Positions 45,001-48,000 of a stretch of 64,000 nucleotides of DNA are shown here, in pieces. The position numbers were made by a program. How positions within the stretch are numbered: the stretch's first letter is position 1; each line of letters begins with the position of its first letter. Where the stretch lies: NCBI RefSeq assembly GCF_013167455.1, contig NZ_CP038328.1; one strand, written 5' to 3'. This DNA comes from Escherichia coli O157:H7 (GTDB lineage: Bacteria > Pseudomonadota > Gammaproteobacteria > Enterobacterales > Enterobacteriaceae).

Positions 45001-48000
45001 AATCTTCAGCGGCAGAATCCGTGGGCTGAAAAAGCAGACTGTTTCGGGATTTATGCTCAATAAAATACCCGCCCCCCCCCCCAGCAACATCTTTGTATAG
45101 CCAACACGGGCAGATTTAATCAGATTAACAGTGCGGATCTGATCATTCCCCATACTGTTCATGATGGCGATCTGGAATGGCAGCGTTTTCCATTCGCCCT
45201 CACCATATGAAGATTCTTTAGGCAGATAATAATTTTGATCAGCCCATTCAACTGGCGTCACCGGCAATGCCCTTATCAGGGGCTGTAATGCAGTTGTGAC
45301 AGCGCTCATCATATTATTCAGTTGTTGCTCTGATATATTCATCAAGTAAATCCGGTAATTTATCCCCTGCCCGCGCACACTGATTTGCCCCCTTAGCAAT
45401 AAGGGTTTTCAGATGGTCAAGATGGCGCGGTGTTAAATCAGGAAACTGTCGCTGCATGGATAAAGGGATGGAATCAAGCGTACTGGATAACGCCATTGCC
45501 AGCTTACTGAGGGCAAAAATACAGAACCCGGTGTCAATCAGTTTTCCTTTTGACACCTCATTTTTTAAGTAAGCGTACAGCGAGGGCCGTATTGACGGGG
45601 ATGTGTTATTCAGCTGGCAGTGCTATGCGCCACGGAAGCAGTTCGCTGACCCGGTTGACCGGCCAGTCTGCTATGACGCCAAGCACATGGCGAAGGTAGC
45701 TTTCTGGATCCACGTCATTCAGTTTGCACGTCCCGATCAGGCTGTACAGTAGCGCTCCCCGCTCACCACCATGATCAGAGCCGAAGAACAGGAAGTTTTT
45801 ACGACCCAGACTGACCGCCCGCAGGGCATTTTCAGCGATGTTGTTGTCGATTTCCACCCAGCCATCGTTCGCATAGTACGTCAGTGCCGGCCACTGGTTA
45901 AGTGCGTACGCGAACGCCTTCGCCAACTCTGAGTGTCGCGACAGGGTCTTCATCTTTTCACGCAACCAGCTTTCCAGGGATTTCAACAACGGTTTCGTTT
46001 TTCGCTGACGTTCAGCAAGCCGCTGCTCTGCCGGCATTCCCCTTATATCCGCCTCTATGGCGTACAACTGACCGATCTGCTCCAGGGCTTCTTCCGTCAG
46101 TGCTGACGGGATGCGGACGTGCACATCGTGGATCTTTCGGCGGGCATGAGCCCAGCAGGCAGCTTCCGTTATCCCACCATTGCGATACAGCTCGTTGAAC
46201 CCGGCGTACGCATCCGCTTGCAGCACACCGCTGAAGCAGGCAAGATGAGTCTGCGGATGGATGCCTTTTCTGTCCGGGCTGTAAGCGAACCACACTGCAG
46301 GTGCCAACGCTGACCCTGCATTGCGGTCATCACGAACATACGCCCACAACCGCCCGGTCTTCGTCTTCTTATTACCCGGCAGCAGTACCTGGACCGGGGT
46401 ATCATCGGCATGGAGTTTGCCGTCAGTCATGACATAGCCATGAAGCGCCTCTTCCAGCGGAGACAGCAGCCGGCAGCATGCATCCACCCAGCCCGACAGC
46501 AGTGAACGCCTCAGCTCCACACCTTGCCGGCCGTATATTTCTGACTGGCGATACAGCGGGGTGTGCTCTGCATACTTCGAGGTCAGCACGCGGGCCAGCA
46601 GCCCCGGTCCGGCGATACCCCGCTCGATGGGCCGCGAAGGTGCAGGTGCCTGCACGATGGCATCGCACTGAGTACAGGCATGTTTTTCCCGTACCGTCCG
46701 GATAACCCGGAAGGCGCTACGCATCAACTCCAGCTGTTCGGCGGTATCCTCGCCCAGATAGCTCAGTGAACCGCCGCAGTTCGGGCAGCACGGCGCCGCA
46801 GGCAACAGTCGCTTTTCGTCACGGGGTAGTGATTCAGGGAACGGCTTACGGGTGCGGGTCTGACGCAACGGACGCTGTACTGCCGGGTCATACACCCTAC
46901 CAGTCAGCGTATCGCTCTCTTTCTGAAGCCGGTTCAGATCGGCTTCCATTTGTGCGATACGGCGGGAGACTTTTTCGGAACGACTGCCGAAGTTCATCCG
47001 GCGGAGTTTATCCAGCTGCGCCTGCAGATGGTCTATTTCGCGCTCCCGGTTGCTCAGCTTTTCCTGCAGGGCGTGGATCAGCGCTTCCTGTTCGGCCAGG
47101 CGCTGTTTCAGCAGGAAGATGTCGTCAGAAGAGATGTCGTTCATAAGCCCGTATTTTACCGGGCTTATTCTGTGACAACCAGGATAAAGAGATTTACAGC
47201 ATGGTCAGGGAGGTCAGCAGCCGCTTAGGCTGTCGCCAGTCGATACCTTCCAGCAGCATCGCCAGCTGCGCCTGCGTAAGGAACACTTTGCCATCACGGG
47301 CTGACGGCCAGGCGAAGCGCCCACGCTCCAGCCGTTTGGTCAGGAGGCACAGTCCGTCACCGGTGGACCACAGCAGTTTAACCTGACTGCCGCTGCGGCC
47401 CCGGAAAATGAAAACATGGCCGGACATGGGATCGTCTTTCAGCGCCGTTTGTACTTTCGCAGCCAGGCCGTTGAAGCCATTTCTCATATCGGTGATACCG
47501 GCAACCAGCCAAATTTTGGTCCCGGAAGGTAACGGGATCATCGCTTCAGTTCCTGTATCAGCAGAGTCAGGAGCTTTTCGCTGACATTGCCATTGAAGCG
47601 GAGCGTCCCGTGCCGGAACGTTACCTCACAGCTGATACTGAGGGTTTCCGGGTCCTCTGCGAGCGATTCTGGCTGTTCGGCAGCTGCATCGAGAGTCACA
47701 GGAAGTAGCTGGGGGCTCTCTGAAGAAGGTAATAGCAGCTTTCCCTCGCGCCATTGTTGTCGCCATTTGAACAACAGATTGGCGTTAATGCCATTTTCAA
47801 GAGCAAGTTTTGAGATGGATATCCCGGGTTCACAGGAGGCAGCAACGAGCTGCTGTTTAAATTCGGGAGGATAATTAGGGCAGCCTTTTCGCCTGCCGGG
47901 AGTCACATTTTTCTGCATATCTGATACTTTGGTTCCCACTACTTATTTGGTGGACACCACTTTGTCTAATTCGTCAGATTCTGACCAGACGGTTCAGGCT

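What the first reader, a model, noticed from the sequence alone, without database searches (positions are those of the whole stretch)
45072..45082. Terminase large-subunit gene frameshifted inside an 11-nt G homopolymer
The N-terminal and C-terminal parts of gpA are both well conserved but in different frames, switching at CTGGGGGGGGGGGCGGG (coding strand). An 11-nt G run is unexpected in a terminase gene. It may be a real slipped-strand lesion (potentially phase-variable) or a homopolymer sequencing error.
Basis: seen in the sequence. Interest (0 to 1): 0.45.

Follow-up and report, generated by a model that had tools for sequence, protein, structure and literature searches.

The report
Slippery poly-G tract breaks prophage terminase
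The large terminase gene of a defective E. coli O157:H7 prophage (Sp4) is knocked out of frame by a run of 11 G's that should be 9, and this run varies from 7 to 13 across public O157 genomes, so it is an ordinary slippage hotspot in a decaying prophage gene rather than a new mechanism.

Summary
Window 45072-45082 is C11 (G11 on the coding minus strand) inside a lambda gpA-type terminase large-subunit gene (45342..43412). It splits the Pfam GpA_ATPase match between two frames.

The locus is prophage Sp4 of E. coli O157:H7. Its small-terminase gene nu1 is already cut by ISEc8 (45569-48008). The in-frame length is G9, as in Sanger-finished Sakai, so G11 is a +2 frameshift. It is the only indel in 48.6 kb against Sakai.

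The pure run was built by T>G substitutions from GGGGGTGGTC. The G8+TC intermediate exists in 7 non-O157 genomes.

Tract length is highly polymorphic. Closed-genome records with at least one copy of each length: G8 ~32, G9 ~192, G10 ~172, G11 31, G12 1. Contigs by exact predicted product: G7 5, G8 52, G9 982, G10 >=1000, G11 98, G12 30, G13 12. The twin prophage Sp14 carries the same tract, often at a different length in the same genome.

Best reading: slipped-strand mispairing at a hypermutable run in a multiply defective prophage. A consensus miscall in this particular assembly cannot be excluded without locus-specific long reads. There is no evidence of adaptive phase variation or programmed recoding. 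Interest is low.

The parts
45072..45082 (-). Poly-G tract, G11 on the coding strand (C11 on +). It starts at nt 261 of terL and spans codons 87-90 in the G9 form. The in-frame length is G9.
   Evidence: It is the only indel against Sakai Sp4 (two extra C at 45081-45082).
43412..45342 (-). terL (lambda gpA-type terminase large subunit), a pseudogene through a +2 frameshift. RefSeq annotates the identical G11 copy in strain 28RC1 as 'frameshifted'.
   Evidence: Coordinates mapped from L001 (window position = 49581 minus L001 position).
44995..45342 (-). N-terminal reading frame: 115 aa, with residues 1-89 authentic (through KSARVGYTKMLLGG) followed by 26 out-of-frame residues (GAGILLSINPETVCFFSPRILPLKIL) and a stop.
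   Evidence: GpA_ATPase profile 4-63.
43412..44998 (-). C-terminal reading frame: a 528-aa ORF from an internal Met, covering the rest of the ATPase domain and the nuclease domain.
   Evidence: GpA_ATPase 73-247; GpA_nuclease 4-286.
44995..44998 (-). ATGA overlap. The TGA stop of the shifted G11 frame overlaps the ATG of the 528-aa ORF, a coupling-type arrangement that is probably coincidental.
   Evidence: Read from the sequence and the ORF ends. Function not tested.
45314..45568 (-). 3' fragment of nu1 (terminase small subunit), separated from its 5' part by the IS.
   Evidence: PMC2669165.
45569..48008 (-). ISEc8 (IS66 family; tnpA, tnpB and transposase) inserted in nu1. This is the hallmark of prophage Sp4.
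   Evidence: Sakai repeat_region mapped through the alignment; PMC2669165.
48009..48269 (-). 5' fragment of nu1.
   Evidence: annotated 'missing C-terminus'.

Best explanation
The tract is a hypermutable mononucleotide run in the terminase large-subunit gene of the defective lambdoid prophage Sp4 of E. coli O157:H7. T>G substitutions turned an interrupted run (GGGGGTGGTC, Leu-Gly-Val-Val-Gly) into G8+TC and then into a perfect G9 (Leu-Gly-Gly-Gly-Gly). G9 is still in frame, as in strain Sakai. Once perfect, the run gains and loses G's by slipped-strand mispairing during replication. The window carries G11, a +2 expansion. It ends the authentic protein after residue 89, just downstream of the sequence KSARVGYT (the ATPase P-loop, from my recollection of lambda gpA), and leaves the remaining 528 codons in another frame. 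In Sp4 the lesion costs little. Its partner gene nu1 is already split by ISEc8, and Sakai's annotation suggests the head module is also truncated, so nothing selects to keep the frame. Shown here: the tract, the frame break, the prophage identity, the allele series and the population-wide length ladder. Inferred: that slippage happened in cells rather than in sequencing for this particular record, and that the change is selectively neutral.
For: Tract and frame break. Identity with Sakai Sp4: 99.64% over 48.6 kb, 173 substitutions and a single indel, which is this tract. Sakai has G9 and an intact terL, ECs_1106. The same prophage shows G9, G10 or G11 in different closed genomes. Closed-genome records with at least one exact copy: G8 ~32, G9 ~192, G10 ~172, G11 31, G12 1. 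At the Sp4 locus itself, 13 genomes have G11, 1 has G12 and at least 46 have G10. Independent exact-product counts in drafts and Logan assemblies: G7 5, G8 52, G9 982, G10 >=1000, G11 98, G12 30, G13 12 contigs. Allele series: the common GGGGGTGGTC in O55:H7, O26 and ST131; the intermediate GGGGGGGGTC in 7 genomes; the other possible intermediate is absent. G9 is present in the beta-glucuronidase-positive O157:H7 strain PV15-279. Within one genome, Sp4 and Sp14 are identical over 4,989 bp except for the tract. EC4115, TW14359 and SS52 all show G10 at Sp4. The window's nearest SNP relatives give matches 1 nt shorter; three of the four were directly confirmed as G10 at Sp4, while G11 genomes lie further away, so G11 arose more than once. 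E. coli indel rates rise exponentially with run length, and 8-bp G:C runs are already outliers in K-12 (PMC8510543). nu1 of Sp4 is disrupted by ISEc8 (PMC2669165).
Against: No reads are available, so the exact length in the source isolate is unverified. Some public assemblies clearly contain consensus indel errors in this same gene: two assemblies of strain 86-24 differ from each other by extra 1-nt deletions. Near-clonal isolates can differ by 1 nt (strains 118, 136 and 138 are G11 but 121 is G10). That fits either very fast real slippage or miscalling. Short-read polishing cannot resolve the tract because Sp4 and Sp14 are identical around it. No closed genome matches the window exactly, so the quality of its source assembly is unknown.
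Confidence: 0.68

Rival explanations
1. Sequencing or assembly artefact. The source isolate carries a different tract length (possibly in-frame G9 or G12), and the consensus caller mis-counted a long G homopolymer.
For: Long homopolymers are the classic residual error of 454, PacBio and Nanopore consensus (my own knowledge). The NADC assemblies of strain 86-24 carry extra 1-nt deletions in terL that disagree with each other. Near-clonal genomes differ by 1 nt at the tract. The two-copy repeat defeats short-read polishing.
Against: The tract is the only indel in 48.6 kb against Sanger-finished Sakai, and none of the eight 8-nt A/T runs differs, so the assembly is not generally indel-prone. G11 is a 2-nt over-call, whereas the demonstrable errors are deletions. 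The nearest relatives appear to be G10 (three confirmed), which is also out of frame, so even a 1-nt miscall leaves a frameshift. G11 recurs in 31 closed genomes from several laboratories and on 98 contigs.
Confidence: 0.2
2. Adaptive contingency locus. Tract length is a selected on/off switch for the only cognate cos-terminase shared by Sp4 and Sp14, and so controls packaging and transfer of these prophages.
For: Tract-length polymorphism spans in-frame and out-of-frame states at two loci. The run was lengthened stepwise by substitutions. Sp4 DNA is packaged in Sakai, presumably by Sp14 terminase, and both Sakai terminase genes are intact (PMC2669165).
Against: Many strains have G10 at both loci, which is off and off: 2-6-2, 17B6-2, 3-5-1, 7409, E32511, F7386, MB9-1, ECP19-598 and JEONG-1266. 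In-frame lengths show no excess beyond what an ancestral G9 state would give. Sp4 and Sp14 have many other defects. No phenotype is known. Viable phages keep an interrupted sequence.
Confidence: 0.08
3. Programmed or compensatory recoding. RNA polymerase slippage or ribosomal frameshifting on the G run restores full-length TerL from the G11 allele.
For: Runs of 9 or more identical bases can cause transcriptional slippage in bacteria, and low-level compensatory frameshifting on a G7 run is known in herpesvirus thymidine kinase (PMC5009743).
Against: Efficient bacterial slippage is documented for A/T runs, and I found no support for G runs. Homologues have no slippery run and a single frame, so the site is not a conserved recoding signal. 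Correcting G11 needs a -2 or +1 shift. nu1 is destroyed in this prophage in any case.
Confidence: 0.03

Closest known systems
terL (ECs_1106) of prophage Sp4, E. coli O157:H7 Sakai (its twin is in Sp14)
   Same: Same prophage, same ISEc8 insertion in nu1, and the same gene order nu1-terL-head-tail joining protein-portal. Identity is 99.64% over 48.6 kb (PMC2669165).
   Different: Sakai has G9 and an intact 642-aa-class ORF. The window has G11 and a broken gene. The window's tail-gene region also carries clustered substitutions against Sakai.
Bacteriophage lambda gpA (terminase large subunit; Pfam GpA_ATPase PF05876 and GpA_nuclease PF20454)
   Same: Both Pfam domains match at full length once the frame is restored. 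N-terminal sequence and gene neighbourhood are lambda-like.
   Different: Lambda (LLGVYAYF, recalled from memory), viable PhiR12 phages (LLGVAGYF) and other E. coli prophages (LLGVVGYF) have no homopolymer here. The O157 allele encodes LLGGGGYF even when in frame. Whether the Gly-Gly form is fully active is untested.
Homopolymeric-tract contingency loci of Campylobacter, Neisseria and Haemophilus (slipped-strand mispairing phase variation)
   Same: A G run of 9 or more inside a coding region, with lengths that toggle the reading frame and differ between and within lineages.
   Different: Those loci sit in surface or restriction-modification genes with demonstrated reversible switching and selection. 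Here the host is mismatch-repair-proficient E. coli, the gene lies in a multiply defective prophage, and no selected switching is evident.
G-run 'savior' indels in herpes simplex thymidine kinase
   Same: A frameshift by gain or loss of a G in a G run, with possible low-level compensation (PMC5009743).
   Different: No evidence here for compensatory expression or for any selective benefit.

Membership tests
Lambda gpA-type terminase large subunit | N-terminal GpA_ATPase domain | tested here: met
   PF05876 is matched in two pieces (profile 4-63 and 73-247) in two frames, and as one piece in the G9 form (E = 5.8e-54).
Lambda gpA-type terminase large subunit | C-terminal GpA_nuclease domain | tested here: met
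   PF20454, E = 1.1e-71.
Lambda gpA-type terminase large subunit | One uninterrupted ORF encoding both domains (a functional gene) | tested here: not met
   The +2 frameshift at the tract splits it into 115-aa and 528-aa ORFs. The identical G11 copy in strain 28RC1 is annotated 'frameshifted' in RefSeq.
Lambda gpA-type terminase large subunit | Operon context: nu1 upstream; head-tail joining protein and portal downstream | tested here: met
   nu1 is present but split by ISEc8.
Prophage Sp4 of E. coli O157:H7 | ISEc8 inside nu1, plus synteny and identity with Sakai Sp4 and its chromosomal flank | tested here: met
   PMC2669165.
Slipped-strand (simple-sequence) hypermutable locus | Perfect mononucleotide run of about 8 or more inside the ORF | tested here: met
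   G11; the only run of 9 or more in the window.
Slipped-strand (simple-sequence) hypermutable locus | Length polymorphism among otherwise near-identical sequences | tested here: met
   G7 to G13 by exact predicted product, and G8 to G12 by direct DNA match in closed genomes. Sp4 and Sp14 in one genome are identical over 4,989 bp except for the tract.
Adaptive phase-variable (contingency) gene | Reversible switching within a clone at high frequency | not testable with these tools
   Needs reads, colonies or fluctuation assays. The 1-nt differences between near-clonal assemblies are ambiguous.
Adaptive phase-variable (contingency) gene | The ON state is functional and the switching is selected | tested here: inconclusive
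   Many strains are out of frame at both loci. No selection test was possible, and the prophage is otherwise defective.
Programmed frameshift or transcriptional-slippage gene | Slippery site and two-frame architecture conserved among homologues | tested here: not met
   Homologues have an interrupted sequence and a single frame.
Homopolymer sequencing artefact | Other homopolymer indels in the same assembly, or a length unique to this record | tested here: not met
   This is the only indel in 48.6 kb against Sakai. G11 also occurs in 31 closed genomes and on 98 contigs. That lowers the artefact reading but does not exclude it.

The most novel reading that the evidence does not exclude
The poly-G run is a true contingency switch shared by the twin prophages Sp4 and Sp14. 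By toggling the only cos-terminase that recognises both, it would set, strain by strain and perhaps cell by cell, whether these prophages can be packaged and moved. On this reading the run was built and kept by selection rather than by drift.
Probability: 0.08. Interest if true: 0.55.

Novelty: new member of a known kind. Interest (0 to 1): 0.22.

Why it matters
There are three practical points.

1. The two terminase copies of Sp4 and Sp14 are in or out of frame depending on the strain, so statements such as 'Sp14 encodes intact terminase' (true for Sakai) do not carry over to other O157 strains. This may affect which strains can package Sp4 and Sp14 DNA.

2. The tract is a predictable source of 'frameshifted' pseudogene calls and of spurious indel differences in O157 outbreak genomics. 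Because the two copies are identical for about 5 kb, short reads cannot resolve it.

3. It is a clean natural example in E. coli of a run lengthened by substitutions until it became unstable.

None of this changes how terminases or phase variation are understood.

Tried and rejected
1. Replicate-assembly test with strain 86-24. The three assemblies all showed a G8 copy, but at different loci (Sp14 in the two NADC records, Sp4 in CP038408). The NADC records also carry extra, mutually discordant 1-nt deletions, so this shows that assembly errors exist rather than validating any length.

2. Separating Sp4 from Sp14 with a nearby SNP. This is impossible, because the two are identical over 4,989 bp. 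Only the ISEc8 junction, about 490 bp upstream, distinguishes them.

3. Using 24.9-kb match lengths as a tract reporter. This is unreliable. Strain 9000 gives 24,899 bp although its tract is G10, so other indels interfere.

4. Literature search for an earlier description of this tract, or of O157 poly-G phase variation. Nothing relevant turned up.

5. Literature support for RNA polymerase slippage on G runs. None found.

6. Literature support for the lambda gpA P-loop motif KSARVGYS. None found in the held library, so that point rests on my own knowledge.

7. Solved structure by sequence. None found, so structural placement of the Gly-Gly substitution was not pursued.

8. Sakai Sp14 tract length. 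Not fetched; I relied on PMC2669165, which states that Sp14 terminase is intact.

Full report
OBSERVATION. Window 45072-45082 is eleven C's on the + strand. The coding (-) strand reads AAG ATG TTG CTG GGG GGG GGG GCG GGT ATT. It is the only homopolymer of 9 or more in the 64 kb. The next-longest G or C run is 6, and base composition predicts 0.04 G/C runs of 11 or more. The reading frame changes exactly here. ORF 44995..45399 (-) carries the terminase N-terminus up to ...KSARVGYTKMLLGG and then 26 unrelated residues. ORF 43412..44998 (-) carries the rest. Pfam places GpA_ATPase profile positions 4-63 in the first ORF, and positions 73-247 plus the whole GpA_nuclease domain in the second.

WHAT THE LOCUS IS. 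The window from 15394 to 64000 aligns to E. coli O157:H7 Sakai 1,171,395-1,219,999 at 99.64% identity. This is prophage Sp4 with its serT/hya chromosomal flank. Upstream of terL, the small-terminase gene nu1 is split by ISEc8 (window 45569-48008). That is the defect reported for Sp4 by Asadulghani et al. (PMC2669165). The paper also states that the twin prophage Sp14 has identical cos and Nu1 sequences and probably packages Sp4 DNA. Over the 48.6 kb there are 173 substitutions, clustered in tail genes, and exactly one indel: the two extra C's at 45081-45082. Sakai, which was finished by Sanger sequencing (from memory), has G9 and an intact terL, ECs_1106.

IN-FRAME STATE AND ORIGIN OF THE RUN. 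With G9 the gene reads CTG GGG GGG GGC GGG TAT (L-G-G-G-G-Y) and encodes a 642-aa protein that matches both Pfam domains in full. G11 is therefore +2. G10 gives a 94-aa product, G8 gives 114 aa, and G12 restores the frame with one extra Gly. Outside O157 the same position reads CTG GGG GTG GTC GGG TAT (L-G-V-V-G-Y) in O55:H7, O26 and ST131 prophages. In plaque-forming PhiR12 phages it reads GGA GTC GCC GGG (L-G-V-A-G-Y). No sequenced phage in the collection has the pure run. The single-step intermediate GGGGGGGGTC (L-G-G-V-G) occurs in 7 non-O157 closed genomes. The alternative intermediate GGGGGTGGGC occurs in none. So the run grew by successive T>G changes, from 5+2 to 8 to 9, before it began to slip. 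G9 is present in the beta-glucuronidase-positive O157:H7 strain PV15-279 (PMC6256406). From my own knowledge that lineage branched early, which fits G9 being the ancestral O157 state. From my own knowledge of lambda gpA, KSARVGYS is the deviant Walker A motif and K84 is an ATP-reactive residue. On that basis the tract encodes residues 88-91, just after the P-loop. I could not confirm this in the held literature, and no solved homologue was found.

POPULATION SURVEY. Short queries of exact tract length (88-92 nt, so a single indel drops identity below 99%) were run against 5,426 complete E. coli genomes. Records with at least one exact copy numbered: G8 ~32, G9 ~192, G10 ~172, G11 31 and G12 1, after allowing for about 2 partial matches per search. 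Each O157 genome holds two copies, one in Sp4 and one in Sp14. In strain 28RC1 the two are identical over 4,989 bp except for the tract, G11 against G10. With a query anchored in the ISEc8 junction, the Sp4 locus is G11 in 13 genomes, G12 in 1 and G10 in at least 46. The other 18 G11 records therefore carry it in Sp14. Combining searches gives these (Sp4, Sp14) pairs:
- (11, 10): 28RC1 and ECP19-2498.
- (10, 11): 7784, AUSMDU00002545, CV261, HB6 and ERL05-1306.
- (12, 11): 27_141091.
- (10, 10): 2-6-2, 17B6-2, 3-5-1, 7409, E32511, F7386, MB9-1, ECP19-598 and JEONG-1266.

As an independent sample that includes draft and Logan assemblies, I looked up the exact predicted product of each length class. 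Contig counts were G7 5, G8 52, G9 982, G10 >=1000 (capped), G11 98, G12 30 and G13 12. Both data sets show one ladder centred on 9-10 with a longer tail toward expansion.

REAL LESION OR MISCALL? Four points favour a real lesion:
- The tract is the sole indel against Sakai in 48.6 kb, and none of the eight 8-nt A/T runs differs.
- G10 at Sp4 is shared by EC4115, TW14359 and SS52. To my knowledge different centres sequenced these with different platforms.
- Within one uniform PacBio + PCR-free MiSeq + Pilon series (PMC10758439), Sp4 shows G8, G10 and G11 in different strains.
- E. coli indel rates rise exponentially with run length, and 8-bp G:C runs are already outliers in K-12 (PMC8510543), so a G9-G11 run is expected to be unstable.

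Three points argue for caution:
- Two assemblies of strain 86-24 carry extra 1-nt deletions in terL that disagree with each other, so consensus errors do occur in this gene.
- Near-clonal genomes differ by 1 nt. Strains 118, 136 and 138 are G11 while 121 is G10.
- The 5-kb identity between Sp4 and Sp14 makes short-read polishing uninformative.

No closed genome is identical to the window over 24.9 kb. The four closest (99.9%: 17B6-2, ECP19-598, G5295, FRIK1989) give matches 1 nt shorter. The first three were directly confirmed as G10 at Sp4. The G11 genomes are more distant (99.4%). So G11 has arisen, or been called, on several backgrounds. Even a 1-nt miscall would leave the window's gene out of frame. 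My estimates: about 0.8 that terL is truly out of frame in the source isolate, and about 0.65 that the length is exactly 11.

MECHANISM AND CONSEQUENCE. The best-supported account is replication slippage on a perfect G run that substitutions created, in a gene no longer under selection. In Sp4 the terminase operon was already dead because of ISEc8 in nu1, and PMC2669165 lists further head and packaging defects. The G11 allele would produce a 115-aa N-terminal peptide. Its TGA stop overlaps the ATG of the 528-aa downstream ORF (ATGA at 44998-44995), so some reinitiation is conceivable. The product would lack the N-terminal part of the ATPase domain, including KSARVGYT. The more interesting implication concerns Sp14. 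Its terL carries the same unstable tract, and many strains are out of frame at both loci. The Sakai-based view that Sp14 supplies terminase for Sp4 is therefore strain-dependent.

RIVALS.
- Artefact (0.20): discussed above.
- Adaptive contingency switch (0.08): the polymorphism and the stepwise build-up are compatible with it. However, the common off/off genotypes, the many other prophage defects and the absence of any phenotype argue for drift.
- Recoding by transcriptional or ribosomal slippage (0.03): homologues lack the run, efficient bacterial slippage is documented for A/T runs only (PMC5009743), and nu1 is destroyed in any case.

COMPARISON AND NOVELTY. The gene belongs to the lambda gpA family by domain content and context, but here it is a pseudogene. 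The tract behaves mutationally like the homopolymeric contingency loci of Campylobacter or Neisseria, but the defining features of selected, reversible switching are untested or unsupported. RefSeq already labels such copies 'frameshifted'. I found no paper describing the tract or its population ladder. It is a new, well-documented example of a familiar kind of lesion. Its value is practical: it explains recurrent pseudogene calls and spurious indels in O157 genomics, and it cautions against extrapolating terminase status from Sakai. Interest is low (0.22).

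Noticed in passing
L001:4013-9001 versus L007:4555-9542 (strain 28RC1; corresponds to window ~40580-45568): Prophages Sp4 and Sp14 of one genome are 100% identical over 4,989 bp (nu1 3' part, terL, head-tail joining protein, portal, protease) apart from the poly-G length. This suggests recent duplication or ongoing gene conversion between the two prophages.
   Followed up: partly
window 45569-48008: A complete ISEc8 (IS66 family, three ORFs) is inserted in nu1. The insertion was present in every O157 Sp4 copy I examined, and it is the only feature that distinguishes the Sp4 terminase region from Sp14.
   Followed up: yes
window ~28000-36500 and ~50000-51000: Almost all of the 173 substitutions against Sakai Sp4 fall in these blocks (tail tip/J, lom and minor tail genes, plus a lysis-region block). 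The rest of the prophage is nearly identical, which is a recombination-mosaic pattern.
   Followed up: partly
window 25362-26120: Internal tandem repeats appear as self-offset BLAST hits with a period of about 141 bp. They map to the tccP2 (EspF-like effector) pseudogene of Sakai Sp4.
   Followed up: no
L009 and L011 (strain 86-24, NADC assemblies), terL: Two assemblies of the same strain carry different extra single-base deletions in terL besides a G8 tract. This is a clear example of consensus indel errors in deposited 'complete' genomes.
   Followed up: yes
window 44995-44998: In the G11 frame, the premature TGA overlaps the ATG of the 528-aa downstream ORF (ATGA). This could allow termination-reinitiation and a TerL fragment lacking the N-terminal part of the ATPase domain. 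It is probably coincidental.
   Followed up: no
window 45068-45082 (- strand GGGGGGGGGGGCGGG): At G11 or longer the tract plus the following CGGG fits a minimal three-tetrad G-quadruplex motif (GGG-G-GGG-G-GGG-C-GGG). G9 and G10 do not. This could add to instability or to sequencing difficulty. It is pure pattern observation.
   Followed up: no
window ~39430-39700 (mapped from Sakai ECs_1110): Sakai annotates only a 267-nt 'head protein' remnant between the decoration-protein gene and the major tail gene. This implies deletion of most of the head-completion module in Sp4 and fits the prophage being multiply defective.
   Followed up: no
whole window: No complete E. coli genome in the collection matches window 27000-51900 exactly (best 99.9%), so the window comes from an O157 genome outside that set or from a different assembly.
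   Followed up: partly
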